From: a virus
Length of the DNA: 64,000 nucleotides
Virus record (IMG/VR): IMGVR_UViG_3300045988_112739
Direction: 5' to 3' (one strand)
Under the pieces are notes generated by a model. It saw nothing but the letters and a program-made list of their open reading frames with translations. It was not told the origin of the DNA and did no database searches. Positions 8,391 to 62,477 of this stretch are shown piece after piece (position 1 is the first letter of the stretch; every line of letters starts with the position of its first letter). The position numbers and the translations under genes are program-made.

Positions 8391-8588
8391 ATTCATCTGA
8401 AAGAATTACATAGTTATGTACCTGTCGCTGACGGGGAATTTACGTCTATGGAGTGTTATATCAAACATGAGTAGTCAATGACGAAAACAGACATGATGAA
8501 ATAGAAAGTTTGTATCGTGAGGGCAAACACAGCATAGGTATATACAGATTACAATAGATTTGCATATATTTATCTCAGCGGCGCTATA
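8391..8588 (+). ncRNA. candidate omega/right-end RNA scaffold of TnpB (extent uncertain, may begin inside tnpB)
   Basis: About 200 nt without an ORF between the tnpB stop and the element end. This inference rests on the known arrangement of TnpB loci. Confidence 0.35.
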
Positions 8589-44737: not shown

Positions 44738-44770
44738 GTATCACCACTGTTTACTGCACAGTGGTGATAC
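44738..44770 (-). terminator. intrinsic terminator overlapping the tape measure stop codon
   Basis: Minus-sense GTATCACCACTGT-gcagtaa-ACAGTGGTGATAC followed by TTTTAATATTT. Confidence 0.6.
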
Positions 44771-47700
44771 CATTTTTGTTTTGTATCTTAGTAACAATTT
44801 CAGACCAGAAACTTTCAGCGTCAATGTTTTTGTCAAACTTAAATTCCATATCACCTGTAAAGGTATAGTTGTTTTTAACTTCTCCTGTGTTAGTAACGTT
44901 TGTTATCATATTAGTAGTTGGCTTAGTTTCTGCGAAAGATGTAGGTTTAAGTATTTCTGCATATTTGTCAAGGCTAGTCGCCAATGTGGTTACAGAAGTG
45001 CCTAATGCAGTCATAATAGACTTCCAGTCAAAAGCAAATCCGCTTTTCCCATTAGTAGCATAGCCACCAGAAATAAGATTTGCTTTTGCTTTGTTAAGTT
45101 CTTTTTGACTTTGAGCGTCCTCAAATCCTAAATTGATGTCAACCGCTTTACCATAACGACTACGGAAAGCTTGTTGTTCTTTATCACTTAGATTAAGTAA
45201 ATCTTTAGCACTTAATGTACTAGCATTTACTCCACGATATTGTGCAAGCCAACTTAAAGCAGATTTGACATCTCTTTGATTTTGTATTGTTTCAGGAATG
45301 TTACTGAAACTCTCTCCGTATTTCTCTAACCATTCTTTACTATCTTCTAAATCTTGTTTTCTATTTTCTTCAAGTTGTTGGTCATATTCCTGTTGTGCTT
45401 TCTTAATATCTTTCTTATTAGTAGTCCACTCAAATTGACCTGTTTCAGCATTGTATTCACGAACACTTCTTTGTGTCTTAGCTTTATTAAGAGCCTCAAG
45501 TTTTTCTTGTAAAGCAATTTGTCTTTGTTGAGCTTCATTCTTTTTATCAAGCAAATCTATCTCTTTATCTAAAGCATCAATTTCAAGCTGTGCCGCTGCA
45601 ACAATACCGTTGGCAATATCTTCATAGTATTCTACTTGTTTAGATAGTACAGTAGATATATCGGATAAAGCGTCCTCAACGGAATAAACAGATTTTTCTA
45701 TAGTATCTACTATACCATCAGCAGTATCTTCTGCTACTTCCCCTGTTGCTTCTAGCAAGTCTTTTATTGCACTAATAGAATCAACAACCTGTTGACCGCC
45801 AATTATTAGAGATGGATTCTTGGCAATTGTTTCATACCACGCTGTAGTGTCTAATGTGTTTAAATCAATAAAATCACTTATTGTTAATTTGCCCGTCAAT
45901 GCTTGCGCTTCCGTTAGCTTATTAAAATTGTTTAGTATTTCCTCTTTTGCCGCTGTAACTGTAGCAAAATTCTTTAAATCTATATGATACTGTTTGTTGA
46001 ATTTGTCCACTAATTCTTTATTACCTAAGATGGCGTTTTTATAAAAATCGCTACTATAGCTTAATTTTTCAATTTGTGCATTTTTGTAATTTGTTTTATC
46101 TTGTTCATATAACTCTTTAAATTTAGAAATAAGTTCTTGTCTAGTCATTTCTTTACGAAGATACCTGTCAATATATTCTGTTATAGCAGGATAAGCGGAT
46201 TTCATAGAATCGAGAGTATCTAATGTAATTTGACTGCTCTCTTGTCCTAATTCATGCATTAGACTATAAGCATCTTTCATACGAGATGTTACAACGTCTA
46301 ATCGAGAATCAAGCTCCTCGTCAAGATTGACGGAGGCTGTAGAAGACCCTTGGTCAAACTTATTTGCGAACTCTTCGATAATTTTAGGATAATCTTTTAA
46401 GTATTCTTGACATTCTTTTAGTATTTCTATATACCAGCTTGGAGCATTAGACATTGCTCCTCTCAGCTCTGGCTTTAAGTTGTTGTCCTCGTCAAAAAGC
46501 TCGGCAAGTTGATATTTTTCGGCATCGGCTCGTGTTTTAGAATATTTATTTTCTATTGCAGACTTTGCATCAATGTAATTAGTGTAATTTTTCAAATCAA
46601 TTCCGTATTTGTTTTTAAATTCTTCCACAAAGCTGGAATTCTCGTTAAGCCAACTAGAATAATACTCATCTGTTTTCATATACTTCTTTTGCTGATAATC
46701 ATAAAAATTATCAATATCGTTATTATAGAACTGCTTAAATGCTTTTAATAACTCATCGTTATCAATCATACCCAAACGATATTTCTCAACAATAGAAGCC
46801 ATACCAGAATACTGGTCTACCATACTACTAAGAATATCTTCGCTTATAGTACTATCTCCATATCCAGCAACTTCCGCTATAAGTTCACCAGCAGATTTTA
46901 TAGCTGTGACATATTCGTTGGCAGTAGTTTTAACACCATCAACAGCATTGCTAACAATCTGTTTTTCAAGTTCTAATAGTTTGTTTTGGTTTGTTATTTC
47001 TAATCTTTGTTCATCAGTAATATCTTTTTGTTTTACCATTGTGGCATTATTAATATTCAACTGCTCATCTAAGGTGTCTAACATAGACTGTACATAATCG
47101 TTACGAACAGCCTCTATTTTTGCAATATTATCCAATCCACCCTGAGTAAGATTTGTTATATCTACACCAGCAGTTTTTAACTCAAACAGTTCCTCTATAT
47201 CAGGAGTTGTCCCCTCTGAAAGAGCTTTTATTGCATTGTTAAGTTTTTCTATGTTGTCTACTGCGTTAGTAATTTGTTTTGCATCTGTAGGGAATCCGGC
47301 AATTAAATCCGTTGCTGTAATCGTTTCGGTTTTTTGATAAGTATATCCTAATAGTTCAAGGGAATCCACTATTTCAGAGATACTCATATCAATATCGTTT
47401 TTGTCTTTTAAACTTTCTCTAATTCCACCAAGTAAATCAGTAATTTCTTTATCTTGTGTTTGCTTAATATCTGTAGCAAACATACCTTTTATTTTTTCAG
47501 ACAACCCGCTACTTTCTACTGCTTTATCAATTAGTATATTAGCTTGTGCTTTTTGTTGAGATTTTTCAAATTCTTGTCCTGCTTCTGTAATACTTCTGCC
47601 AACAAGTTCTGCAATTCTTTCGTTGCTAGTTAATCCTGTTGCAGTAGATAATGTTTGCAATAAATTATCTGCAACGGTCTTTAAATCATTGTATGCTTTC

Positions 47701-49430
47701 TCATCAACTTCTCCAGAACCTGCCAAAGTGTTCATTTGAGAAGTAATTTCTGTATACTGGTCTAAAACTTCCCTTACAGTTTGACCCGCATAATCTCCCT
47801 CTGTAAACGTTTTAGACAACGAGTCTATCGCTATATTTTTTGCATTGTCAAGTATTTGTTTGTTTTGCTGATATTCAGTATCTTTTTCTATTGCTTTGAT
47901 TTCTTGTGAAAGCACGTCTCTAAAACTTTGATAGGCTTCTTGGTTTTCTTTCGTAATTTCTCCACTAGAAATTTTCTCGTCAATAATTGTTAATAATTGT
48001 TTCATATTTTCAACAGTTTGAAAATATGATTCTGACCCAAACATAAGAGCCTCGTTTGCCAAATAGACCTTGCCACCAAATCCGCTAATTTCTGATTGTA
48101 AATCATTTATTACATCAAAATATTTTCTGGCAGCACCACTGTCTCCAATTTGTGTGACTGCTCCGTGAAGCTTACCAGTGGTAATGTCTCCGTAATTCCA
48201 AAAGCCGATGCTCTTTTCGTAGTCAAAAGCCGTTGCTACTTCATCGGAAATATCAGTCCACGTTTCACTCGCACGTTGCTGTGAAATTTGTTTAAGTGTA
48301 GCCAAAGTTGTTTCAAGTTTGCCATTTACTACATCAATTCCGTCTGCTTCTGAACCGTAAGTCTCAACTATTTGGTCTCTACTAGTTAATAATTCTTCTG
48401 CCTTTTCGTTTTTAAGAGACGTATCAGATATAGAATCATATTCTTTTTTGAGGTTTTTATATTTTTCTATAAGCTCATCTATAGAAGAAGATGTATCATT
48501 ATAGGTGTTTATGGTTTCAATCGCGTTATCACGAGCCTGTTCTGCGGCTTGACGAGCACTCATAATGGCTGTCGCTATGCCTGAAATTGCAATAGATACA
48601 ATTCCCAAAACTAAATTCAACGTTGACATAGCCGTTGTCAATCCTTGTGTCGTAAATTGCATTGTCTTTTGTTTTGCTATTGCCCCAGCTAAACTTATAG
48701 TTTCCTGCTGGTTGAGTTGTATATTATTTTTTTTTGCCATTGCAAAAAGTATTGCCGCTATTTTACCTTGCTTTTGACTTTCTGTTAAACTGTTGTTTGA
48801 TATTATAGCCTGCATATTAGCAGCAGTTTGCGCATCTGTGTTTAACAACAGTTGTGCTTGTGCAGTTGTCAACCCCATATCAACTAATTTTTGAGCTTTC
48901 TTTTCTGCATTTAAAGCCTTGCTGCTTACAATAACTGCAATCTGTTGTTTTTCGTACGCACTTAATGTTTCCCCGTTTTTAGAGATTATTGTATCTAATG
49001 TAGCCCAGCTACTTTTTAATCCTGTAATTGTTTGTCTTAAATTTTTTGTAGGAAGGACTACGTTGTTTAACAAACCTTTAAATCCTTTGCTTAAACTAGA
49101 TACTAACGCAGGTATTCCTTTAAGAGCCTTAAAAGCAAGAAAAAACCCTAAAACATTTTGCAATACAGGTGCTTTTGCTGATAAAGCATCTAATACACTA
49201 AGCATTCCACTCAATAATGAAACTCCAATTTTAATAGTTCCACTTTGGTTAAGACCCTGTATAAATTGTTCCCATTGTACAGTTAATTCGTTTATTTTAG
49301 CTTCAAGGCTACTCATATAGTGAGTATACTTCTGAGCAGATGTACCAGAAGCTTCCATTGTTTTGTTTGTATATTCAAGAACTTTGTCGTAGTTCTGCAT
49401 TACTGCAATAAAGGTATTTCTTTGATGTAC
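44751..49430 (-). CDS. tail tape measure protein, exon 3
   Basis: Begins VHQRNTFIAVMQNYDK.., the usual continuation after the ..IAG motif of TP901-type TMPs. The track start MKVTEL (49448) is interpreted as intron 3' sequence. Confidence 0.7.
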   Translation of the reverse strand, partial: VHQRNTFIAVMQNYDKVLEYTNKTMEASGTSAQKYTHYMSSLEAKINELTVQWEQFIQGLNQSGTIKIGVSLLSGMLSVLDALSAKAPVLQNVLGFFLAFKALKGIPALVSSLSKGFKGLLNNVVLPTKNLRQTITGLKSSWATLDTIISKNGETLSAYEKQQIAVIVSSKALNAEKKAQKLVDMGLTTAQAQLLLNTDAQTAANMQAIISNNSLTESQKQGKIAAILFAMAKKNNIQLNQQETISLAGAIAKQKTMQFTTQGLTTAMSTLNLVLGIVSIAISGIATAIMSARQAAEQARDNAIETINTYNDTSSSIDELIEKYKNLKKEYDSISDTSLKNEKAEELLTSRDQIVETYGSEADGIDVVNGKLETTLATLKQISQQRASETWTDISDEVATAFDYEKSIGFWNYGDITTGKLHGAVTQIGDSGAARKYFDVINDLQSEISGFGGKVYLANEALMFGSESYFQTVENMKQLLTIIDEKISSGEITKENQEAYQSFRDVLSQEIKAIEKDTEYQQNKQILDNAKNIAIDSLSKTFTEGDYAGQTVREVLDQYTEITSQMNTLAGSGEVDEKAYNDLKTVADNLLQTLSTATGLTSNERIAELVGRSITEAGQEFEKSQQKAQANILIDKAVESSGLSEKIKGMFATDIKQTQDKEITDLLGGIRESLKDKNDIDMSISEIVDSLELLGYTYQKTETITATDLIAGFPTDAKQITNAVDNIEKLNNAIKALSEGTTPDIEELFELKTAGVDITNLTQGGLDNIAKIEAVRNDYVQSMLDTLDEQLNINNATMVKQKDITDEQRLEITNQNKLLELEKQIVSNAVDGVKTTANEYVTAIKSAGELIAEVAGYGDSTISEDILSSMVDQYSGMASIVEKYRLGMIDNDELLKAFKQFYNNDIDNFYDYQQKKYMKTDEYYSSWLNENSSFVEEFKNKYGIDLKNYTNYIDAKSAIENKYSKTRADAEKYQLAELFDEDNNLKPELRGAMSNAPSWYIEILKECQEYLKDYPKIIEEFANKFDQGSSTASVNLDEELDSRLDVVTSRMKDAYSLMHELGQESSQITLDTLDSMKSAYPAITEYIDRYLRKEMTRQELISKFKELYEQDKTNYKNAQIEKLSYSSDFYKNAILGNKELVDKFNKQYHIDLKNFATVTAAKEEILNNFNKLTEAQALTGKLTISDFIDLNTLDTTAWYETIAKNPSLIIGGQQVVDSISAIKDLLEATGEVAEDTADGIVDTIEKSVYSVEDALSDISTVLSKQVEYYEDIANGIVAAAQLEIDALDKEIDLLDKKNEAQQRQIALQEKLEALNKAKTQRSVREYNAETGQFEWTTNKKDIKKAQQEYDQQLEENRKQDLEDSKEWLEKYGESFSNIPETIQNQRDVKSALSWLAQYRGVNASTLSAKDLLNLSDKEQQAFRSRYGKAVDINLGFEDAQSQKELNKAKANLISGGYATNGKSGFAFDWKSIMTALGTSVTTLATSLDKYAEILKPTSFAETKPTTNMITNVTNTGEVKNNYTFTGDMEFKFDKNIDAESFWSEIVTKIQNKNGITTVQ

Positions 49431-49720
49431 CAATTCTGTTACTTTCACCTAAAAGGTTACTGACTATGTATTAAACATAGCGGTCGAAGTTCTTCCAAAA
49501 GTGTCTTTACACTTGACCTCAACTCTATATATTTCTATATAGTTCAGACTGTATTTTCATCTTTACAGATGTTATCCTCTGCGGTCGTTACGATGAGATT
49601 ATAAATAATCTTTATCTCGGTATTGTCTACAGCATTATCTGTTTAGAGTTTCACCGATATAGGATAATTCTGATATCTAAAAGATATCCATATATTTCTA
49701 TATGTTCGGGCATACATTTT
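49431..49720 (-). ncRNA. group I intron B in the tape measure gene (290 nt, no ORF)
   Basis: P1 GGGUa/uGCCC (49724..49720 with 49712..49708). P10 AUGUAU (49717..49712) pairs with exon GUACAU (49430..49425). The P7'/P9 segment auacagucugaacuauauagaaauauauag is nearly identical to the dnaE intron. Terminal G at 49431. Confidence 0.65.
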
Positions 49721-50282
49721 ACCCGCTATTGCAGTCGCAATTTGTGCCTGTTCTACGGTATCAAATTCATTCCATCTACGCCCAACATCATCTAGAACAT
49801 CTTCAAGATTTCTAAATTCTGTTGCACTATTTCTAAGAGTAATATTATAACGTTTAAGAACCTTTTCGGAATCGTTAATAGCTTCTCCCTCGTCATCAAT
49901 ACTCTTACCAGCTTTTACATTCTGCAAACGAGAGAACATTGACTTAAATGCCTGACCTACTGTTTCTGCTGACAATCTAGTGGTTTCACTTGCTGTAGTG
50001 AGCATACCCACCATTTTATCAAAGCTAACGCCAGCAGCACTAGCAAATGAAGCAGAATACTGGAATGCAGTAGCAAGTTCTTCTGTACTTGTTGCCGCAA
50101 TAAGGTCGGCATTAACAAGTTTATCTACTACTTCTGCCGCATCGTCTGCTTCTAATTTATATGAGTTTAAAATTGCAGTTAATTTTTCTGTAGCTTCGCT
50201 TGATTCCATTGCACCAAGCGTTGCCATCATAGTAGATGCTTTAAGTAATTTAGCAGTTTCCTCTGCTGTCTTACCCTGTCTC
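49721..50282 (-). CDS. tail tape measure protein, exon 2 (TP901-type core)
   Basis: RQGKTAEETAKLL...ATSTEELATAFQYSASFASAAGVS...TVEQAQIATAIAG. It has no start of its own. The track ORF 49643..50230 runs into intron B. Confidence 0.7.
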
Positions 50283-50622
50283 CTGTTATATTAACTAGAG
50301 TTCGTCACACTCTAATCTTATAGTTTCCTATAAGCATAGACTATATCTTCAATCTAAAAAAGATTGTCCCCCACTTCGATTTAAGGGGTTCTCACCCACG
50401 CCATATGACGATTGCGCCCTACTTCTATTGTCCACAAGGACTTACGAATAGTCGTTGAACCTTTCTCCTAATAGGAGACTTGGTTGCGGATTGTCCAATA
50501 TTGATACTTTTTACTATACCTTAATAATTAGTTAAGCCATTATAATATTGCTATTATAATTTAGTATATCAATCTCTAAGGAGTTTCCCGCAGTTAAAGG
50601 GATTTATAATGACCTAATTAAA
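50283..50622 (-). ncRNA. group I intron C in the tape measure gene (about 340 nt, no ORF)
   Basis: Minus-sense AAGAUAUAGUC (50349..50339), CAACGACUA (50458..50450) and GGACAAUCCGCA (50496..50485). P1 GGCUu/AGGUC has a U.G pair. The join gives SGSVEW-L-RQGKTAEE in frame. Boundaries are good to a few nt. Confidence 0.65.
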
Positions 50623-53429
50623 AGCCATTCAACAGACCCAGAACTCACAATTTCTGTTGTAGTTCCAAGTTCTTTTGCAAGTTCAGAATAACTAGCTAAA
50701 GTTTTCCTAACACTAGTATCAGTCTGATTAGTTACCATTTGTACTTCTGTCATGGTCTTATCGAATTCTTTAGTTTTTTCGATAACGTTTGACAAGCCTT
50801 GTCTCATTTCCATGAACAGTCTATTAAATATATTAAAACTAAAAGCAACAGCCGCAGTACGTTGGAAACTTGCTTTTAATCTTTCTAACAGTGTCAGTTG
50901 CTTACTATTACTCTGATTACTACGAGTTACATTATCTGCCATTTTAGCATTGGCTTCCGCTACCATATTTGTATAAGTTGAAGTTTTAGCTAATGCATCA
51001 TTGTCTTTAAGTAGTGCATTATACTGCGCTTGTAACCTATCAACAACTGCTTGTTGCTGATTTACAGTAGCATCATTATATGCTCTTGCTTTATACTCTT
51101 GAAGTGTAGATTGTGCTTTCTTCAAATTAGTATAAGCAGTAATCATTTTATTAAGGGTTGCCAAATCACTTTCTTGCTTTGCTTTTATAGTATCGTCTTT
51201 TATAGTGGCGTTAGCTTCTGCTACTACGGTTCTTAACTTTTCATATTGTTCTCTTGTAATACCTAAAGTGGCATTGAAACTCTTCAAAGACATTTGTCCA
51301 CTTGAAAAATCAATTAAATTTCCAAGTCCACTAGTGCCAATTATAGCAGACATCTTATCTTGTACATTTTGATAAGCGGCAGTGTATATACCTTTGTCGC
51401 CCTTGCCAGCCTTATTAGTAAGTTTGCCTTGTTCTCTGCGTAATTCTACATATTCTTGCAAAGATTTAGTTGCTTTAGAATAAACTTCGTTTTCTTGCTT
51501 TTGACGTTGAATATCTTTTTCTTTACTATTTGCTACTCTCTGTAATGTCTGATTATATTCAATATAATTGTTTAGTAATTCTCTTACTCTGTTTGTTAAT
51601 AACTGAGTGTTTTCAGCACTTCTTAATTCTGTATTATATTCAGATAGTTTGGCTTGTGCGATTTTTTGATACTCTGTGGCTTCTTCTATATTTCCTTTTT
51701 GCATAGCAGAACGAGATTTTTGCCAAGCCTGATACCTTTCATTTTCTAATCTTGTTAATTTTGTCACTAAGTTTTGCTGTTGTACGTTTGTATCGCTAGA
51801 CGTAATTCTATTATATGTATCTGTTGGTATGCGACCATTATAAGATTCTATCTGAGTATTTACTTGATTAAGCCTGTTCTGTGTAGTTACAAATTTTTGA
51901 CTACCCGTTGTCTGTCCAGAAAGTCTACTTTCTAATTTAGCCCTTTCTGATACTAAATTTGTAAGCTCCTGCTCTAATTGAATTTGTTCTCTTATAACGT
52001 TATCTTCGTTTGCTCTTGTTTGAATAGCCCGTTGAATGTTTTGATTACGTTCCTGTAATTGCCGATTAAGAAAAGAAATACTTTCTGGGTCTTCGGCGTT
52101 CCCGTAACCGCTAAAAATAGGGTCTCTACCGCCAGCCACCCTACCAGCATTTAATGCGCTTTTCTGAATATTGTTTATTTCAAGCTGATATCTTATTTTG
52201 TTTTGTAAAAGATTATCTTCGTTGGCTTCTGCCTCGTATAATTTTAATTTCAAATCATACTCTTCTGTGAGTAGTGTTTTATATCTTTCTACCTGGCTGA
52301 CCTCATCCACATACGTTCTGCTCAAACTAGATGTCCCACCACGGCTTAACATCATATCATTAAGTGCTTTAGGGTTTACATTTTGTGGCGTTTTCCCAAA
52401 TTTATTTGTAATTGTCTGTATATCCTCAGGAGATAAAGTTATATTTGCACTTTCTCGTCCGCTTATTCTTAATCTAGCGTTTGCTTTTACTAAATTGCCT
52501 GTATCGTCAAATACGCCAGTAATCTGCCTAAACAAATTGCTATAGTTTTTTTTAAATTCGTCAAACCTTTTTCTTGCGTTGATAATTGCGGCATCCGCTT
52601 TTTGAGACGCATCTGCTGATATTTTTAATCCCTCTGCTGTATTTCTATTAAATTCAGACAATTTGGCTCTAGGGTCTTTACTTGCTATAGAGGAATTGTC
52701 ACTTTCCCCATTATTGCCGCCGCCAGACGGTGAATTTGTAGATGGATTGCCAGCGTTTTGAGCCGCACCACTTAAAGCATTAGCCGCGTTGCTAACCGCT
52801 TGTGCCGCAGTATTTAATGTGGTAGAAGCCCCACTTATACTTTGGGAAGTGTTTCCTAAATTAGCATTAGCTGTACCTAAAGCAGAAGCACTATTACCTA
52901 TATTAGTAGCACTAGTATTTAAACTAGAAGAAGCAGAATTAAGGTTCTGAACAGTGGTGTTAAGATTATCAACAGTCTGCATTAATGTTTTATTTAGAGC
53001 GTCTGCGTTGGTTGATGTACTCTTCTTATCAGCAGGAGTTGTTTTTGTCTTTTGAGCTGTAATTACTTTTTCCACTTCTTTAGTAATTGTGGCTAGGTCA
53101 GAAGACTTATATCCTGTGCCGCCTATCGTAGCTCTTCCAGCTTTTGTGTTATAAGTAAACTTTAGACTTTGGTCTGTAATCTGCCTATTGATATCCGTAA
53201 CGAATTCTGCAAAGTTCTGATAGTCTTTCTTAGATTGTTCAATCGCCTTTTGTATTGGTTCTCTAAACAGACTTTCTCCTATATTTTTAGTTCCAGAATA
53301 TTTATTTAAAGCATCAAAAAGCTTCATAATATCATTAGGAAACTTTGATACTAAATTCTGAAATTGCTGTTCAAATGTACTTGTATCTAATCCTAATTGA
53401 ACCTTGGCAATTTCTATTTTTTCTGCCAT
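50623..53429 (-). CDS. tail tape measure protein, exon 1
   Basis: Coiled-coil, Ser/Asn/Ala-rich N-terminal part ending ..ELAKELGTTTEIVSSGSVEW. The listed C-terminal LLIRSL-stop is read-through into the intron. Confidence 0.7.
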
Positions 53430-56389: not shown

Positions 56390-56827
56390 TCACATTTCCT
56401 TTATTATATCCTGTAACGCCGAAATATTTTTTAATATATTAAGGCTTTTTCCGTAGTCAACGTTTTGTGAAGAAATAAGTTTATTATATGACACAGATAA
56501 CTCTTCTACGTTCTTTTCCAATATTTTCTTAGTACCTCCAAAGTGAGTTTCGGAAGATAATGATATTGTATCTATCTTACCAAAAATATTTCTTAAAAAT
56601 AACTCCGCATCATCAATGACATATATGGTCTTATCTTTTCTATTTTTAACGTCTTCCCACAATGCAAAACTTACATCATTTTTAGATATGCCAAGTTCTA
56701 ACATTTTATTAACCTTGTTGTAGTATTCTGATTTATCTCGACAGAGAATTGTGTATCCGTTCTCGTAAGCACATTTAATAATTTCTTCTGTCTTACCAGT
56801 ACCACGACTTCTATAAATTATATTCAT
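56390..56827 (-). CDS. small P-loop NTPase
   Basis: ATG 56827 follows aaggaga. Walker A SRGTGKTEE and Walker B-like IYVIDDAE. Confidence 0.5.
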   Translation of the reverse strand: MNIIYRSRGTGKTEEIIKCAYENGYTILCRDKSEYYNKVNKMLELGISKNDVSFALWEDVKNRKDKTIYVIDDAELFLRNIFGKIDTISLSSETHFGGTKKILEKNVEELSVSYNKLISSQNVDYGKSLNILKNISALQDIIKEM

Positions 56828-57028
56828 AATATTCTCCTTGATGGTTCGGTCATCACCCATATATTTTGGCAGTCTATTTATCTTCATGCAGACCAAACAG
56901 ACATATCAGGCTCAACTAACTTAATGTTGAGCCACTTTCACAGAAATTCAAAATTTTGAACCCTTATAAATAAAGGATTTTGAGCTTGATTTTGTGAATA
57001 AAATTTAATTTAATATTTTTTAATAAAA

Positions 57029-57547
57029 TTACTCGATTTTCTTTTCCACAGTTACTATAGTATCATTATGCCACCCACCATGTGCCACCAATAAAATCTC
57101 TACTATCTCAAATCCATATTTCTTACCTATTCCACCAGAATTCCAACAACAAGTTACTACATAACCATCTTTCTTCATTACCCTGCCTATTTGCTCCTTT
57201 TGTTTCGACCAATAACTTGACTGTGTGGTTTCCATATTAACTGTCTGACCCATCTTTTTATAGCACTCTGAAACCTGTCTTGGACTATAAGGAGCGTCAA
57301 ACAGAACCATATCGCAAGATTTATCATCAAACAACTTAAAAAACTCCAATGAATCTAAATGATAATCTGTATCATATGCAGTATCTAAGTCATTTGTAAT
57401 CGTACCTAATTTACTTGAATTTGCAAAAGGGTCTAATATAATATGCTTCTCAGGCAACTTAGCTATGTACTTATTTATTATCTCTTCAATAGGCTTAATA
57501 CTAAAAGTATTACTATTTGGCATACACCACACTCTATTAATTTCCAT
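57029..57547 (-). CDS. small DNA methyltransferase (DAPY motif)
   Basis: IILDPFANSS (motif I-like) and VLFDAPYSPRQ (motif IV variant). Confidence 0.55.
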   Translation of the reverse strand: MEINRVWCMPNSNTFSIKPIEEIINKYIAKLPEKHIILDPFANSSKLGTITNDLDTAYDTDYHLDSLEFFKLFDDKSCDMVLFDAPYSPRQVSECYKKMGQTVNMETTQSSYWSKQKEQIGRVMKKDGYVVTCCWNSGGIGKKYGFEIVEILLVAHGGWHNDTIVTVEKKIE

Positions 57548-58140: not shown

Positions 58141-58797
58141 TCAGGTTGTCTCGTCCTCAGTATATACCTTGAAGGTATAAAGAGTTCTGTCAAGACAGCC
58201 CTTAACAAATTCAAGACCAAGGTTCTGTACAACAGGCTCACCATCAGCAGAAACGTCAAAGTTCCAGTTACCGTCAACCTGTGCCTGACCCTCAATCTCG
58301 CAAGGGAATAACTCACCAGTACATACGTCCTTTGCAATACCATAAGCGGTAGCAAGAACAACCGGAGGAATACCGTCAGAGTTTACGGTGATAGTCTGTG
58401 CATTAGTATCAGACTTGAAGCTATATGCACAAGCAATCATGTCTCCAGCGGTGGGAGCATCTGTGCCAAAAGTAATCTCCTTAGTACCAGAGTCATAAGA
58501 GAAAGTCTCTGTTCCAGTAGCAGTAGCAGCTTGTTTATAAGTCTTAGAATAAGTGCCATCAGCACCTACAATATAAACAAATTTGATTTCGCTACCAGCA
58601 GTACCAGTAGCAGTAAACTTAGTCTTGTACTTACCATCACTACCTGCCTCAATTACATCATAATATGTAATAGGGGTAGAACCAGTAACAACCTCAGTAC
58701 CATTCTGAATAGCCAGTACCTCAGTATTAAATGTAGCAACAGTTACATTCATAGTGGCTCTACGAGAGTGTGAGAAGCCACCGCCGATATATACGTC
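58141..58797 (-). CDS. probable major tail (tube) protein, exon 3
   Basis: The frame is open from 58797 (DVYIGGGFSHSRRAT) before the listed Met. Beta-rich, Thr/Gly-rich sequence. The function call is positional. Confidence 0.55.
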   Translation of the reverse strand, partial: DVYIGGGFSHSRRATMNVTVATFNTEVLAIQNGTEVVTGSTPITYYDVIEAGSDGKYKTKFTATGTAGSEIKFVYIVGADGTYSKTYKQAATATGTETFSYDSGTKEITFGTDAPTAGDMIACAYSFKSDTNAQTITVNSDGIPPVVLATAYGIAKDVCTGELFPCEIEGQAQVDGNWNFDVSADGEPVVQNLGLEFVKGCLDRTLYTFKVYTEDETT

Positions 58798-59165
58798 CTT
58801 GGTATTTATATGTATTCGCTAAATACATACCATACAACAAATGTATGCTCATGCTTTCACATGAGAGTAGGTCATATCACAGACTTATTAAAAGTCTTTC
58901 CCCATTTCACAGTCGCTTGACTGTTACGCACCGCCGTGCTGACCGTCGAACCTTACTTGAATAATTTATTCAAGTCTTGGCGGCTGATTGTCCATTATTA
59001 CAGTACTTAGGCTTGCACCATATACTATCCACATTATTCTTTCTACTTTCGTCACATTCACGCTTGTTAATTAAAACTACGTTGTAGTTAATGTGGCTCT
59101 TAGGAGTTTCCAGCCATTAAAGGAATTTTTCGATACTTTTCACAAAGTAAAGGGAACGTTATATT
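58798..59165 (-). ncRNA. group I intron E2 (368 nt, no ORF)
   Basis: P1 GGAAU/GUUCC with a terminal U.G pair. GGCUGGAAACUCCUAAGAG...GGACAAUCAGCC (P4/P5 type). Variant P7 GGUCA/UGACC. Terminal G at 58798. Confidence 0.6.
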
Positions 59166-59186
59166 ATTCCTGCACCCAATATCTTC
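59166..59186 (-). CDS. probable major tail protein, 21-nt micro-exon (EDIGCRN)
   Basis: This is the only segment left between the 3' end of intron E1 and the 5' end of intron E2. It keeps exons 1 and 3 in frame. Confidence 0.5.
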
Positions 59187-59544
59187 CAATAGGTCGTTAA
59201 TCTATTGCGTTTTTAAAACAGCTCTATATTTCTATAGACGTTGAGACTATATCTTCATACATTTTATGTATGCACTCCATTTCGATTTAAAGGGTTCTCA
59301 CCTACGCACTTGCGCCCTACTCTTATTGCAATTAACCCATTGCTAAAAAAGATAGTCGTTGAACCTTTCTCCTAATAGGAGACTTGGTTGCGGATTATCC
59401 AATACCAATACTTATTACCATACCTTAGTAGTTAATTAAGCCATTACTATATTACTATAATAACTTGGTATATTGGTCTCTAAGGAGTTTCCCGCAATTA
59501 AAAGTGTTTTCAAATACCAATCAGTATTTGGAGCAGTATTATTT
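59187..59544 (-). ncRNA. group I intron E1 (358 nt, no ORF)
   Basis: P1 GGGUa/uGCUC. Minus-sense AAGAUAUAGUC (59255..59245), CAACGACUA (59362..59354) and GCGGGAAACUCCUUAGAG. P9 cuauagaaauauag. Terminal G at 59187. Confidence 0.65.
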
Positions 59545-59694
59545 ACCCGTGGGATATACCATTTCCATTGTATTTTCAAGAGAAGTTGTCTTACAGTTAG
59601 TAAGATATGCAATAATGCTCTTGTCAACAGGCTTTCTTAAAAGAATCTCAAATGCCTGCTGCATAGAGAACTGTTTAGGTGTAGCTAAAGCCAT
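59545..59694 (-). CDS. probable major tail protein, exon 1
   Basis: ATG 59694 follows ggag. MALATPKQFSMQQAFEILL...EMVYPTG, 50 codons ending in GGU. Confidence 0.55.
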
Positions 59695-59723
59695 AAATTT
59701 TCAACTCCATTCATAACATTAGA

Positions 59724-60557
59724 TTAATTAATACTAGAAGCCCAATTAATCTTTTCCCAATTAATAGGGTGTTTCTTCGTATCAATACAACCAGCATTTA
59801 ATTTATTCAATGTATCTTGGTAATTACTCATTTTGTTATACCTAAAATACATATCATACAGTGTATAAACAGGCAAATCCCACACAGACGTAGGATTACC
59901 CAAATGGCACTCAACAAATGAAACTATAGTGTCAAAGGTTATATATTGTTTCCTTTGAACTTTTCGTTCATCGTAATCATGCTTTAAGATATATTTCTTT
60001 GCTCTTTTGTTGCCACCCTTTAAGAAATCAAAATCCTGATTAATCCAATTAATCTGTCTCAACATTTGAGACAAAAGGTTATAACTCATTTCAGCAAATA
60101 CTATACTATCTTCATTTATAATATAAATATCATTCTCATTTTTTACATTATATAATACAGTCTGTTGTGTGTTCTCCCTAGTGATAACAGACAAGGCATA
60201 TTCGCCTGTTAAACCTAAGAAAAAGTTTAAGGCATCTCTATATATATCAGAAACTAAAACACCATCAACTGTAATATCATATTCTTTTAAATATAATTTA
60301 CAATCCTTTTTCTGACCTACAGCCATACTAAGGAATAATGTCCAATCACTTTCTATATCTTCATACCAAACTTGATTTTCACACCATAAAATATCTGCGT
60401 ATTCTATTCTGCCACAAGTCAATACGCTAACATATGCCCTATAATTACTATAACCTAGTTTCTCTATATCTCCTAATGTAGGCTGATATAGTGTGAGAAA
60501 TTTGGTTATACTTTGGGCTGTACCCCTCATCAAAGAAAGAGTTTCTACTTTATTCAT
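59724..60557 (-). CDS. hypothetical structural-module protein
   Basis: ATG 60557 overlaps the upstream stop (ATGAATAA). The longer track ORF start is an overlap artefact. Confidence 0.45.
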   Translation of the reverse strand: MNKVETLSLMRGTAQSITKFLTLYQPTLGDIEKLGYSNYRAYVSVLTCGRIEYADILWCENQVWYEDIESDWTLFLSMAVGQKKDCKLYLKEYDITVDGVLVSDIYRDALNFFLGLTGEYALSVITRENTQQTVLYNVKNENDIYIINEDSIVFAEMSYNLLSQMLRQINWINQDFDFLKGGNKRAKKYILKHDYDERKVQRKQYITFDTIVSFVECHLGNPTSVWDLPVYTLYDMYFRYNKMSNYQDTLNKLNAGCIDTKKHPINWEKINWASSIN

Positions 60558-61221
60558 TTTGATTCTTGCTATGAAAATTTCTAGGCAGATAAGATATTTT
60601 AGGGATTTCGACTGCATTTTTGTCAATTTCTTCAACAGGATAAACAAGTTTACTATTAATATTTTGGTTCTTAGGCAATCCACCACAGTCAATGTTGCTA
60701 TTAACACTAACCTCATAAATCATCTGCAAACCGTAGAAATAGTTACTATAATCTCTTGGTTGAAAACCACGAGAGTATGGCGCACCAGTAATAGGCAAAT
60801 CTGTTATCTTGCTATTAAGTATTTTGTCTATTTCAGACATAATAAGGTAAGGGCGATATCCCTCTTTTACTTTCCAACATTTTAAATGAGAAATAATATC
60901 TATCAAAATATTTACTCTCCTAAACCCAGTATTTTCATCAACATCATAGCCACCACTTAAATTTACTAAAATAAATGTTTGCTGTTTAGTTTCTGCTTCT
61001 GGTATTTTAGGAAGAGGAAATACATTTTTATAAAAAAGAACGTCTGTATTCTTTATATCAGGTTGAGAATATACCGAATAATTTAAATCAGGAAAATCGT
61101 TCATATTATCAGAACCACTTTCGGGATAATAATAGAGCAATTTGCATATATTTTGATTTCTCAAAATCTTTTCTCCGATTATATTATCTACAATTTTAGA
61201 CAACTCTGAATAATATGGCAT
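60550..61221 (-). CDS. hypothetical structural-module protein
   Basis: ORF translationally coupled to its neighbours. Confidence 0.45.
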   Translation of the reverse strand: MPYYSELSKIVDNIIGEKILRNQNICKLLYYYPESGSDNMNDFPDLNYSVYSQPDIKNTDVLFYKNVFPLPKIPEAETKQQTFILVNLSGGYDVDENTGFRRVNILIDIISHLKCWKVKEGYRPYLIMSEIDKILNSKITDLPITGAPYSRGFQPRDYSNYFYGLQMIYEVSVNSNIDCGGLPKNQNINSKLVYPVEEIDKNAVEIPKISYLPRNFHSKNQNE

Positions 61222-62477
61222 TATACTAACCCTCCTAATTCTATTTCAAATTCAGTTATTCTAGTATCACTTGTATCACTAACACAAGACACTATTAATC
61301 TTTCATCGCTAGGTCTTAAATTAAGCACAGTGAAATGGTTGCCATCGACATCACTAATTTTGTAATATCTGCTATTCGCACCACTAAAAGTAAATGTGAA
61401 TACAGCATTTGTGGCAACATTATTTACATATTCATAAACGCCAAACGTTTGTCTCGCATTCAACTTAACGAACCTAGAGATAGGACTAATTACTATTTTA
61501 GAAACCATAGGTAACACATTAGAAACTTTGACTTGTACTGCCGAGGTCACATCAGGTTTATTTACCATTGTGGCTATGAAGCCACACTCGCCTAATTTCA
61601 ACAGTTTAAATTCGCCTGTATATGGGTCTATTTCGGCGACACTAGGAGACGTACTCTCCCAAATTACTTCCTCGTCAGTTTCTTCTCCGTCAAGTAAAAC
61701 TCGTGCGTTTAATTTTCCTGTGAAACCTATAACATTTTCTATATTACCAGTAGGAATAATAGCAGTATAATTATGTTCAACATAATTAGCTATTCCTAAG
61801 TCAAACCTGTCATCGTCAGATATATTGTCAAGGTCAATATAAAAATTTATAATCTTTTGAGACTCAGAATTAAATGTCTCTCTTAAATCATAATCTCCAC
61901 GACTACGAATTTTATAAACACTAGACCCGAATATAAATCTATTATTTATAGAAACCCTGTCGCTGTAAACATTGTCTTGACAAAAAACTTGCAGTCTACT
62001 ATTAGCTACTTCCATTTCTGTACTTCTCTGCAACTGTGTTTCATTAATCTTATAATCAATCACACACGGTTCTTTATGAATGTTTCCATATTTATCCTCT
62101 GTATTTATAGTGTTATTACAACGCCTTACATAAACACTAGAAGTTGCAGTAAGTATATTTTCCAAAGAGTAAACTATCCAAATATTGTTTTCAAACCTAT
62201 ATCTTGTACCCAATTCAGGACAATGTTTAATGTCTGGAAATATAATTTTACGATAATCGTCATTAACCCTTTGTCCAGTAGTAGCATCTATAAGAGTTGT
62301 AACTCTACATATAATGGGTTTAAATTCTAATGTACCAAAAGCAATTTCTTCTTCTATACCATTTTTCTGGTATGTAGAAGAATTGGTAAAAGTTTTATCA
62401 ATTAATGCTTGCATGGCATCGTGCCATCTGTCATACGGTTCGGGAGTGTTGCTTATAAACGTATCATAATATTTCAT
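61221..62477 (-). CDS. structural protein with C-terminal Ig-like (Big_2-type) domains
   Basis: VIWESTSPSVAEIDPYTGEFKLLKLGECGFIATM is a Big_2-like pattern, followed by a second beta-rich repeat. Confidence 0.45.
   Translation of the reverse strand: MKYYDTFISNTPEPYDRWHDAMQALIDKTFTNSSTYQKNGIEEEIAFGTLEFKPIICRVTTLIDATTGQRVNDDYRKIIFPDIKHCPELGTRYRFENNIWIVYSLENILTATSSVYVRRCNNTINTEDKYGNIHKEPCVIDYKINETQLQRSTEMEVANSRLQVFCQDNVYSDRVSINNRFIFGSSVYKIRSRGDYDLRETFNSESQKIINFYIDLDNISDDDRFDLGIANYVEHNYTAIIPTGNIENVIGFTGKLNARVLLDGEETDEEVIWESTSPSVAEIDPYTGEFKLLKLGECGFIATMVNKPDVTSAVQVKVSNVLPMVSKIVISPISRFVKLNARQTFGVYEYVNNVATNAVFTFTFSGANSRYYKISDVDGNHFTVLNLRPSDERLIVSCVSDTSDTRITEFEIELGGLV

What the first reader, a model, noticed from the sequence alone, without database searches (positions are those of the whole stretch)
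58798..59544. Two group I introns separated by a 21-nt micro-exon in a probable tail tube gene
The gene starts at 59694 with a 50-codon exon ending in GGGU. It is followed by intron E1 (59187..59544), the 21-nt segment gaagatattgggtgcaggaat (EDIGCRN) and intron E2 (58798..59165). Exon 3 then starts DVYIGGGFSH. The 5' site of E2 is defined by P1 GGAAU/GUUCC with a terminal U.G pair. The 3' site of E1 is the G that closes the hairpin CAAUAG..CUAUUG. Only this combination keeps all three exons in frame. A 7-codon exon flanked by two ribozymes raises questions about splicing order and about possible exon skipping, which would delete 7 in-frame residues.
Basis: partly seen in the sequence, partly recalled or inferred. 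Interest (0 to 1): 0.8.

Follow-up and report, generated by a model that had tools for sequence, protein, structure and literature searches.

The report
Two introns split phage tail-tube gene
A phage tail-tube gene is interrupted by two separate self-splicing group I introns that leave only a 10-base exon between them (not 21 as first read), and the second intron appears to be cut one base away from where the textbook rule predicts.

Summary
The core observation holds. The minus-strand gene 59694..58141 is an SPbeta-type tail tube gene (YomU_Tube) split by two different group I introns. The proposed junctions do not hold.

Intron-less homologues all read YPTG-G[A/R]GN-VYIG. Near-identical relatives that carry E1 but not E2 fix the 3' end of E1 ten bases further downstream.

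Corrected map, minus strand:
- exon 1: 59694..59545
- E1: 59544..59177 (368 nt)
- micro-exon: 59176..59167, GGUGCAGGAA (10 nt)
- E2: 59166..58797 (370 nt)
- exon 3: 58796..58141

The product is 271 aa (...YPTGGAGNVYIGGGF...). Skipping the micro-exon shifts the frame, so it is not an in-frame 7-residue deletion.

E2 scores below Rfam's cut-off but is a real ribozyme. 31 of 81 base pairs show compensatory changes among relatives.

At three independent insertion sites, introns with E2's P1 (GGAA/UUCC plus a U.G pair) can only restore the intron-less sequence if the exon ends at GGAA and the U belongs to the intron. A canonical U/omega-G cut would leave one extra base.

Related phages show 7 insertion sites within 18 codons of this gene. 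The closest precedent is Twort orf142: a tail tube gene with three introns and a 23-nt exon.

The parts
59545..59694 (-). Exon 1 of the tail tube gene (50 codons, M...MEMVYPTG). A GGAG ribosome-binding site lies 9 nt upstream of the ATG. The exon ends ...ACGGGU.
   Evidence: Sequence. tblastn of the intron-less YomU protein of L002 covers residues 3-49 at 91% identity. Alignment A1.
59177..59544 (-). Intron E1, a 368-nt group I intron with no ORF. P1 pairs exon GGGU with IGS GCUC (59534-59531) through a U.G pair. P7 is GACUA (59357-59353) / UAGUC (59249-59245). The distal hairpin at 59207-59187 is followed by the tail GAAGAUAUUG, which ends in omega-G at 59177.
   Evidence: Rfam RF00028, 73.2 bits. 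The 3' end is fixed by the E1-only alleles L088, L089 and L005, and by L021/L023. P1 and P10 were read from the sequence and are inferred. Coordinates.
59167..59176 (-). Micro-exon GGUGCAGGAA (10 nt). It encodes G51, A52, G53 and the first base of N54. Bases 1-4 can form P10 with E1 (GGUG/UACU, 59538-59535). Bases 7-10 form P1 with the IGS of E2.
   Evidence: Intron-less homologues read YPTG-GAGN-VYIG. E2-less siblings read GGT GCA GGC AAT. The diverged lineage L034/L046 has GGUCGUGGAA, giving G R G N.
58797..59166 (-). Intron E2, a 370-nt group I intron with no ORF. It begins with U (59166) and ends ...CCAAGG, with omega-G at 58797. The IGS is GUUCC (59157-59153). P3 is UUCC (59125-59122) with GGAA inside 58903-58896. 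P7 is GGUCA (58944-58940) / UGACC (58874-58870).
   Evidence: Rfam RF00028, 33.9 bits, E=1.2e-6. Covariation on alignment A5. The junction comes from three independent insertion sites.
58141..58796 (-). Exon 3. It starts AC GUA UAU AUC GGC (..N VYIGGGFSHSRR...) and runs to the stop codon.
   Evidence: ORF list. tblastn to L002 YomU residues 62-270 at 85% identity. HMM scoring of splice variants.

Best explanation
The gene at 59694..58141(-) is the tail tube gene (YomU family) of an SPbeta-like, low-GC gut phage. Its most conserved N-terminal motif (...MVYPTGGAGNVYIGGGF...) is interrupted by two unrelated, ORF-less group I introns that sit 10 nt apart. Each intron folds on its own into a ribozyme and is removed by the usual two transesterifications. 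For E1, P1 pairs the exon end GGGU with GCUC through a U.G pair. The first four bases of the micro-exon (GGUG) can pair with UACU just 5' of that guide to form P10. Omega-G is at 59177. For E2, the last four bases of the micro-exon (GGAA) pair with UUCC of the guide sequence, and omega-G is at 58797. The exons join as ...GGU|GGUGCAGGAA|ACGUAU..., giving a 271-aa protein that reads YPTG-GAGN-VYIG like its intron-less homologues. Either order of removal works, because each splice leaves a normal long exon for the other intron. Skipping the 10-nt exon would shift the frame and truncate the protein, so inclusion is obligatory. The two cores differ in the three core helices compared (P3, P4, P7), which should prevent the hybrid-ribozyme route to exon skipping proposed for Twort introns 2 and 3. 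The introns are, or descend from, mobile elements: close relatives differ by presence or absence of individual introns, and related copies carry HNH homing endonuclease genes. Shown here: both RNAs are group I introns, the gene is a tail tube gene, and comparative data fix the exon junctions. Inferred: the P1/P10 pairings, the splicing order, and the actual chemistry at E2's 5' site. At that site the comparative junction puts an A-U pair at the cleavage position and leaves the U.G wobble one step inside the intron.
For: Both introns match Rfam RF00028. The E2 fold has 98.4% of cells paired and 31 of 81 pairs with compensatory changes, including 3 of the 4 pairs of the P3 pseudoknot; slid controls give 1-3 and 0/500 shuffles reach the observed value. 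Gene identity rests on phrog_2729, PF27173 YomU_Tube on 120 homologues, and synteny with L002. Twenty intron-less homologues have G-x-G-N between YPTG and VYIG. The E1-only alleles L088, L089 and L005 read ...ATATTG|GGTGCAGGCAATGT.... L004 carries the identical E1, micro-exon and E2 plus a third intron. The diverged L034/L046 lineage has the micro-exon GGTCGTGGAA, giving GRGN. The E2 junction GGAA|U...AGG|N is the only reading that recreates the intron-less sequence at three sites. (1) N54 of the tube gene. (2) E44|M45 of the tube gene, in L005/L089 compared with the window itself. (3) An unrelated small gene, where L090 and its relatives read AAA GGA A[U...AGG]CA TTA CAA ATG, while the intron-less L104 reads GGA ACT TTA CAA ATG and L105 reads GGA ACG; the protein motif is RKG-T-LQM. 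E1 and E2 are 57% identical against 52% for shuffled sequence, and neither has a stop-free stretch longer than 55 aa. Relatives' introns encode HNH_3 proteins.
Against: There are no RNA data. A search of metagenome contigs for the spliced junction found nothing. E2 is below Rfam's gathering score. The inferred 5' splice site of E2 follows an A, not the near-universal U of a U.G pair. A perfect U.G pair (GGAAU/GUUCC) sits one base further on. Scaffold relatives with unambiguous frames cut after the U: Staphylococcus phage LSA2308 intron 2 at ACGAAU| and L098 at GGGAGCU|. The P10 pairings are short and were read by eye; for E2-type introns they do not uniformly favour one register.
Confidence: 0.82

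Rival explanations
1. One reading: E1 = 59544..59187, a 21-nt micro-exon encoding EDIGCRN, E2 = 59165..58798, and a 275-aa product.
For: All four splice-site bases are canonical (U at both 5' sites, G at both 3' sites) and the product is in frame.
Against: It inserts 4 extra residues and destroys the G-x-G-N motif that is invariant in 20 intron-less homologues. The same E1 3' site puts the E1-only alleles L088, L089 and L005 out of frame. The homologous model in L034 needs a different omega-G choice to stay in frame. It scores 15 bits below the corrected product.
Confidence: 0.02
2. E2 cuts canonically after the U (GGAAU|) and its 3' site lies one base further on, after ...AAGGA. The product would read GAG-I-VYIG.
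For: It keeps the U.G wobble at the cleavage site, as in scaffold relatives. In intron A of L005, the guide loop AAACUA pairs perfectly with UGGUUU in this register. The product is in frame.
Against: The last intron base would be A, A, A or C at different sites rather than the universal G, although the G-C pair of P7 is intact. That last base equals the ancestral exon base at all three sites, a coincidence of about 1/64. It replaces an invariant N, and the T conserved in P0121-P0123, with I.
Confidence: 0.06
3. Fully canonical splicing of both introns with a compensating shift: E1 uses the second G of UUGGG as omega-G, the micro-exon is GUGCAGGAAU, E2 cuts after the U and after AAGG, and the product reads YPTG-VQEY-VYIG.
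For: All four sites are canonical and the length is correct. In L034 the register GGAAU-AUG pairs with UAUGUUCC.
Against: It replaces the invariant GxGN motif and scores 12 bits lower. The identical E1 must use UUG| in E1-only alleles. Introns with the same P1 at sites that have no upstream intron to compensate (L005 intron A; L090) would be frameshifted.
Confidence: 0.05
4. The 5' site is after GGA and the 3' site after CCAAG, the reader's exon 3 start. The product would read GAG-D-VYIG.
For: It is in frame with an omega-G and scores only 3 bits below the best model.
Against: It gives D at an invariant N. At the L090 site it gives GCA (Ala), where intron-less alleles have ACT or ACG (Thr).
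Confidence: 0.03
5. The whole span 59544..58797 behaves as one intervening sequence, so exon skipping or a composite intron is the main pathway.
For: Exon skipping between tandem group I introns is documented for Twort orf142 and for a Bastillevirinae gene (PMC10136302, PMC11878797).
Against: Joining exon 1 to exon 3 at the comparative junctions shifts the frame and gives a stop after 65 aa. The in-frame variant lacks GAGN. E1 occurs alone in close relatives. The cores of E1 and E2 are dissimilar.
Confidence: 0.02

Closest known systems
Staphylococcus phage Twort orf142 (tail tube gene) with three self-splicing group I introns and exon skipping (Landthaler & Shub 1999, as cited in PMC11878797 and PMC10136302)
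   Same: Several group I introns packed into a tail tube gene and separated by very short exons. E2 also has blastn-detectable relatives in Twortvirinae. In Staphylococcus phage LSA2308 the related intron sits in a gene split by three introns immediately downstream of the tail sheath gene, taken here to be the tail tube gene; its guide sequence is also GUUCC.
   Different: The tube protein family differs (YomU/SPbeta-type). The micro-exon is 10 nt against 23 nt, and its length is not a multiple of three, so skipping cannot give a functional protein. The two introns are dissimilar (57% identity), whereas Twort I2 and I3 are highly similar. The inferred 5' site of E2 is not at the U.G pair.
Mini-exons between organellar group I/II introns (for example fungal mitochondrial cox1; PMC10352661)
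   Same: Exons shorter than about 4 codons flanked by self-splicing introns. They can be found only by fitting missing conserved residues, which is how this one was resolved.
   Different: Those are mitochondrial and often depend on maturases. This one is in a phage late structural gene.
HNH-endonuclease-carrying group I introns of Gram-positive phages (SPO1/SP82, Bastille, SPbeta bnrdE/F)
   Same: IA-like phage introns in conserved motifs of essential genes. Relatives of E1 and E2 carry HNH_3 ORFs in a peripheral loop. Intron presence or absence varies among near-identical alleles.
   Different: The window's copies have no ORF. The host gene is a structural (tail tube) gene rather than a DNA-metabolism gene.

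Membership tests
Group I intron (Rfam RF00028), E1 | Conserved catalytic core (P3-P8, with P7 holding the G-binding pair) that scores above the curated threshold | tested here: met
   73.2 bits against a gathering score of 50, with the full-length model matched.
Group I intron (Rfam RF00028), E2 | Conserved catalytic core fold | tested here: met
   33.9 bits is below the gathering score of 50. However, all 15 helices, including the P3 pseudoknot and P7, are kept in 4 sequences, with 31 of 81 compensatory pairs against 1-3 in slid controls.
Group I intron | 5' exon ends in a U that forms a U.G wobble with the internal guide sequence in P1 | tested here: inconclusive
   E1 meets it: ACGGGU| with GCUC. 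For E2 a GGAAU/GUUCC helix with a terminal U.G exists and is invariant. But the exon junction inferred from three independent sites lies after the A, so the U is intronic. RNA data are needed.
Group I intron | The intron ends in G (omega-G) | tested here: met
   E1 ends ...GAUAUUG at 59177 and E2 ends ...CCAAGG at 58797, both at the comparative junctions.
Group I intron | Self-splicing with a guanosine cofactor | not testable with these tools
   No RNA or biochemical data. The metagenome scan for the spliced junction found nothing.
Mobile (homing) group I intron | Encodes a homing endonuclease, and alleles are polymorphic for intron presence | tested here: inconclusive
   The window's E1 and E2 have no ORF longer than 55 aa. 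Homologous introns in L034, L046 and L005 encode HNH_3 proteins. Alleles 92-94% identical differ in which introns they carry.
Twintron (intron inside an intron) | One intron interrupts the sequence of another, with no coding bases between them | tested here: not met
   The 10 bases between the two ribozymes encode the conserved G-A-G-N(1) and are contiguous exon in E2-less alleles.
Tail tube protein, YomU family (PF27173) | Sequence match to the family and the conserved tail-gene neighbourhood | tested here: met
   120 listed homologues carry PF27173. phrog_2729 matches at E=6e-19. YomX-YomW-YomV-YomU order as in L002. The local Pfam copy lacks this model.

The most novel reading that the evidence does not exclude
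E2 belongs to a subfamily of phage group I introns (P1 = exon GGAA / guide UUCC, followed by an intronic U paired to the guide G) that is cut one nucleotide 5' of the U.G wobble. The cleavage site would then be a Watson-Crick A-U pair, contrary to the near-universal rule that the U.G pair marks the 5' splice site. The subfamily has colonised at least three different GGAA^N sites. In this window it works next to another ribozyme across a 10-nt exon in which 8 of the 10 bases are predicted to pair with one ribozyme or the other.
Probability: 0.55. Interest if true: 0.7.

Novelty: new member of a known kind. Interest (0 to 1): 0.55.

Why it matters
Gene callers miss this gene. They report a 51-aa stub and an N-terminally truncated ORF, so tail tube proteins of a whole group of gut phages are mis-annotated.

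The conserved YPTGGxGNVYIGxGF motif is an intron hotspot. There are 7 insertion sites within 18 codons across relatives, and up to three introns per gene. It is a compact natural system for studying intron homing, competition between introns and co-conversion.

The 10-nt exon must serve as P10 for one ribozyme and P1 for the next. Skipping it is lethal to the reading frame. It is a natural test case for how tandem ribozymes avoid exon skipping.

If the displaced 5' splice site of the GGAA|U introns is confirmed by cDNA, it would be a natural exception to U.G-defined splice-site choice in group I introns.

Tried and rejected
- Megablast of the region against phage genomes found only short intron-core hits.
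- The local Pfam copy gave no tube family.
- A search of metagenome contigs for the E1-spliced junction GTNTATCCCACGGGTGGTGCAGG, hoping for a transcript or an identical intron-less allele, found nothing.
- Landthaler & Shub 1999 (PMC22036) is not held. Its content was taken from two papers that cite it.
- The first fold_alignment run included a wrongly specified L099 stretch. I repeated it cleanly.
- The MAFFT alignment that mixed E2-type, A-type and Staphylococcus introns misaligned the P6-P7 region and was not used for pair counts.
- tblastn of the L090 small protein against phages found nothing. The large protein database did find intron-less homologues.
- I tried to decide the E2 junction from P10 pairings. 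The results conflicted between L005-A, L034, L090 and the window, so the junction rests on comparison of intron-plus and intron-less alleles instead.
- Considered and rejected: twintron, a single composite intron, programmed frameshifting to absorb the extra U (the U falls at different codon positions at different sites), and broken pseudogenes (the arrangement recurs in several diverged lineages on long contigs).

Full report
**What is at the site**

On the minus strand, an ORF starts at 59694 behind a GGAG ribosome-binding site and stops after 51 codons. A second ORF in the same orientation (58752..58141) lacks a proper N-terminus.

Rfam's group I intron model matches 59222-59570(-) at 73.2 bits against a gathering score of 50. 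With relaxed thresholds it also matches 58848-59175(-) at 33.9 bits. The E-value is 1.2e-6 for the local stretch and 6.6e-5 for the whole window.

**The gene**

The joined product matches phrog_2729, a virion structural protein, at E=6e-19. It has 180 homologues in the large protein collection. The 120 listed all carry PF27173, which the source names YomU_Tube.

An intron-less relative, L002, has the gene order YomX_C - YomW - YomV - YomU_Tube. tblastn places the same four genes in the same order in the window at 62477..58150. This is an SPbeta-type tube gene in a 34% GC phage.

**Testing the junctions**

Twenty full-length intron-less homologues (44-85% identical) all read ...MVYP[TQSA]G-[GAS][RAK]GN-[VT]Y[IV]G.GF.HS... 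That is exactly four residues between YPTG and VYIG.

Close relatives then fix the junctions at nucleotide level.
- L088 and L089 are 92-94% identical in exon 3. They carry the same E1 but no E2, and read ...CCTATTGGAAGATATTG|GGT GCA GGC AAT GT[G/A] TA[C/T] AT[A/T] GGC..., which encodes GAGNVYIG. L005 reads the same way.
- L021/L023 carry a diverged intron at the same site and read ...GATATTG|GGC GCA GGC AAT GTC TAT.

Hence E1 does not end at the G closing the hairpin CAAUAG..CUAUUG (59207-59187). It ends ten bases further on, at 59177.

**The 10-nt micro-exon**

In the window the exon after E1 starts GGU GCA GGA A, followed by the start of E2. Exon 3 has to supply AC GUA UAU AUC to give G-A-G-N-V-Y-I. 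This is identical to P0002/P0003 (MGAGNVYIGGGF...) and to the closest intron-less homologue, P0001.

The map is therefore:
- exon 1: 59694..59545
- E1: 59544..59177 (368 nt)
- micro-exon: 59176..59167 (GGUGCAGGAA)
- E2: 59166..58797 (370 nt)
- exon 3: 58796..58141
- product: 271 aa

I scored the alternative products against a profile built from the intron-less homologues:

| Splice model | Bits |
|---|---|
| Corrected (GAGN) | 469.3 |
| GAGD variant | 466.4 |
| GAGI variant | 464.5 |
| All-canonical (VQEY) | 457.6 |
| In-frame skip | 452.4 |

Joining exon 1 directly to exon 3 at the corrected junctions shifts the frame and stops after 65 residues. Exon skipping here is not a benign 7-residue deletion.

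**Is E2 a real ribozyme?**

Yes.
- The same intron occurs at the same site in L004, which is nearly identical to the window.
- It also occurs in a lineage whose tube protein is only about 40% identical (L034, L046, L099, L101). There the micro-exon is GGUCGUGGAA, giving G-R-G-N, the family consensus.
- I wrote a 15-helix group I structure by hand for the window copy, including the P3 pseudoknot and P7. On an alignment of four copies, 98.4% of cells pair and 31 of 81 pairs change on both sides. Versions slid by 1-3 columns give 1-3 such pairs, and 0 of 500 shuffles reach the observed values.
- P7 is GGUCA/UGACC, where E1 has GACUA/UAGUC. Three pairs differ in a compensatory way and the G-C pair of the guanosine site is kept.

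E1 and E2 are 57% identical, barely above the 52% of shuffled sequence. E1 is closer to an intron in the tape-measure gene, at 69%. Neither intron has a stop-free stretch longer than 55 aa.

**The odd 5' splice site of E2**

By the textbook rule the exon should end with that U. With omega-G at ...AAGG, that cut leaves one base too many.

The same problem recurs wherever an intron with this P1 is found.
- **Site 1, tube gene N54:** GGA A[U...AAGG]AC or [U...AAGG]AU. E2-less siblings read GGC AAT.
- **Site 2, tube gene E44|M45:** L005/L089 read ATG GAA [T...TTAGG] ATG GTT TAT CCC. The window itself is intron-less here and reads ATG GAA ATG GTA TAT CCC. No upstream intron could compensate.
- **Site 3, an unrelated small gene:** L090/91/94/95/100 and the diverged L097/102/103 read AGA AAA GGA A[T...TTAGG]CA TTA CAA ATG. 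Intron-less homologues found in the protein collection read AAA GGA ACT TTA CAA ATG (L104, 95% identical protein) and AAA GGA ACG ATT GAC ATG (L105). The protein motif is RKG-T-LQM or RKG-T-IDM.

Only the reading "exon ...GGAA | intron U...AGG | exon" recreates the intron-less sequence at all three sites.

The alternative "cut after U and one base later at the 3' end" has three problems. It would make the last intron base A, A or C rather than G. It would make that base coincide with the ancestral exon base each time. It would put Ile at an invariant Asn and at a conserved Thr.

The alternative GGA|...AG| gives Ala where Thr is found.

I therefore place E2's boundaries at 59166 and 58797. This puts an A-U pair, not the U.G wobble, at the inferred cleavage site.

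Two caveats apply. Scaffold relatives with unambiguous frames are canonical: Staphylococcus phage LSA2308 intron 2 cuts at ACGAAU|...CUG|GAA, and L098 at GGGAGCU|...AAACG|GAA. Other introns in this gene family also seem to lack a U at -1: L021 intron 1 has C or G, and the L004/L005 third intron has C or G. Only RNA data can show where the chemistry really happens.

**How it most likely works**

These steps are inferred.
- E1's guide GCUC (59534-59531) pairs with the exon end GGGU through a U.G pair.
- The four bases just 5' of the guide (UACU, 59538-59535) can pair with the first four bases of the micro-exon (GGUG) as P10. This fits the corrected 3' site and neither alternative.
- E2's guide UUCC pairs with the last four bases of the micro-exon.
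- So 8 of the 10 bases of the micro-exon are predicted to pair with one ribozyme or the other.
- If either intron goes first, the other is left with an ordinary long exon, so no fixed order is required.
- P3, P4 and P7 differ between the two introns. A hybrid ribozyme spanning the micro-exon is therefore unlikely. That is the route proposed for exon skipping between the near-identical Twort introns 2 and 3 (PMC10136302).

**Mobility and the hotspot**

Relatives differ in intron content:

| Locus | Introns in the tube gene |
|---|---|
| Window | E1 + E2 |
| L004 | E1 + E2 + a third intron after GTATACATTGGAGC |
| L005 | Intron A + E1 + that third intron (with an HNH gene); exons of 18 and about 26 nt |
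| L089 | Intron A + E1; exon 18 nt |
| L088 | E1 seen (the contig starts inside E1) |
| L034 | E1-like (HNH) + E2 (HNH) + a further intron after GGCU |
| L021/L023 | Two introns |
| L017/L018 | One intron, at V46/Y47 |
| L019 | One intron (HNH), inside Y47 |
| L046 | Additionally a TnpB-carrying intron after ATWN |

 That is seven insertion sites within codons 44-61, plus one further downstream.

Among 38 viral loci with this gene, seven are interrupted in this region.

**Comparison with what is known**

Tandem group I introns in a phage tail tube gene are known. Twort orf142, later recognised as the tail tube gene, has three introns, a 23-nt exon between introns 2 and 3, and exon skipping (PMC11878797, PMC10136302). 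Coxiella 23S rRNA has a 34-nt exon between two group I introns (PMC10136302).

E2 has blastn relatives in Twortvirinae. In Staphylococcus phage LSA2308 the related intron lies in a gene split by three introns just after the tail sheath gene, which I take to be the tail tube gene. Mini-exons shorter than four codons are routine in mitochondria (PMC10352661). I found no paper describing introns in YomU-type tube genes.

**Verdict**

This is a new member of a known kind, with three features beyond the precedent:
- a 10-nt, frame-breaking micro-exon
- a dense insertion hotspot
- an inferred non-canonical 5' splice site that needs cDNA confirmation

Noticed in passing
window 50317-50659 (-) and 49525-49730 (-): The tape-measure gene (ORFs 53429..50604, 50230..49643 and 49448..44751) is also split by two group I introns. 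One scores 73.8 bits and is 69% identical to E1. The other is smaller and scores 38 bits, below the gathering score. The exact junctions of the first are unresolved: several in-frame options exist, and its P1 (CAGAA/UUCUG) also lacks an obvious U.G pair at the expected place.
   Followed up: partly
window 8445-8507 (+): Match to Rfam RAGATH-18 RNA (RF03064) at 60.3 bits against a gathering score of 44.9.
   Followed up: no
L046 7500-9120 (IMGVR_UViG_3300013426_000034): A third intron in that phage's tube gene, after ACT TGG AAT, carries a 384-aa TnpB (HTH_OrfB_IS605, OrfB_IS605 and Cas12f1-like TNB domains). It looks like an IStron-type element in a structural gene. The rest of the tube gene is not found downstream in the fetched stretch.
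   Followed up: partly
L005 713-2510; L004 1790-2990; L034 300-2500: Relatives carry three introns in the same 20-codon stretch, leaving internal exons of 10, 15-16, 18, 21 and about 26 nt. HNH_3 homing endonuclease genes sit in peripheral loops of several of these introns.
   Followed up: yes
L021 1690-2110 and L004/L005 third intron: Two other intron types in this gene family also appear to lack a U at the last exon position when junctions are set by protein continuity: ACCGGC|GAAC... and GGAG(C)|... In contrast, L021 intron 2 (GGGGU|), L017 (GGUU|), L019 (GGUAU|) and L034 intron 3 (GGCU|) are canonical.
   Followed up: partly
L047, L052, L053, L056, L071, L072 (viral contigs with the E2-type P7 core): In other genes of gut phages, an E2-type intron is followed after a short exon by the start of another group I intron (a P1-P2-P3/P4 motif within about 60-100 nt). 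Tandem introns with short exons therefore seem common in this phage group.
   Followed up: no
window 57029-57547 (-) and 56390-56896 (-): Two ORFs (172 and 168 aa) lie between the homologues of L002 genes g5 and g6. They have no counterpart in that intron-less relative and may be an insertion.
   Followed up: no
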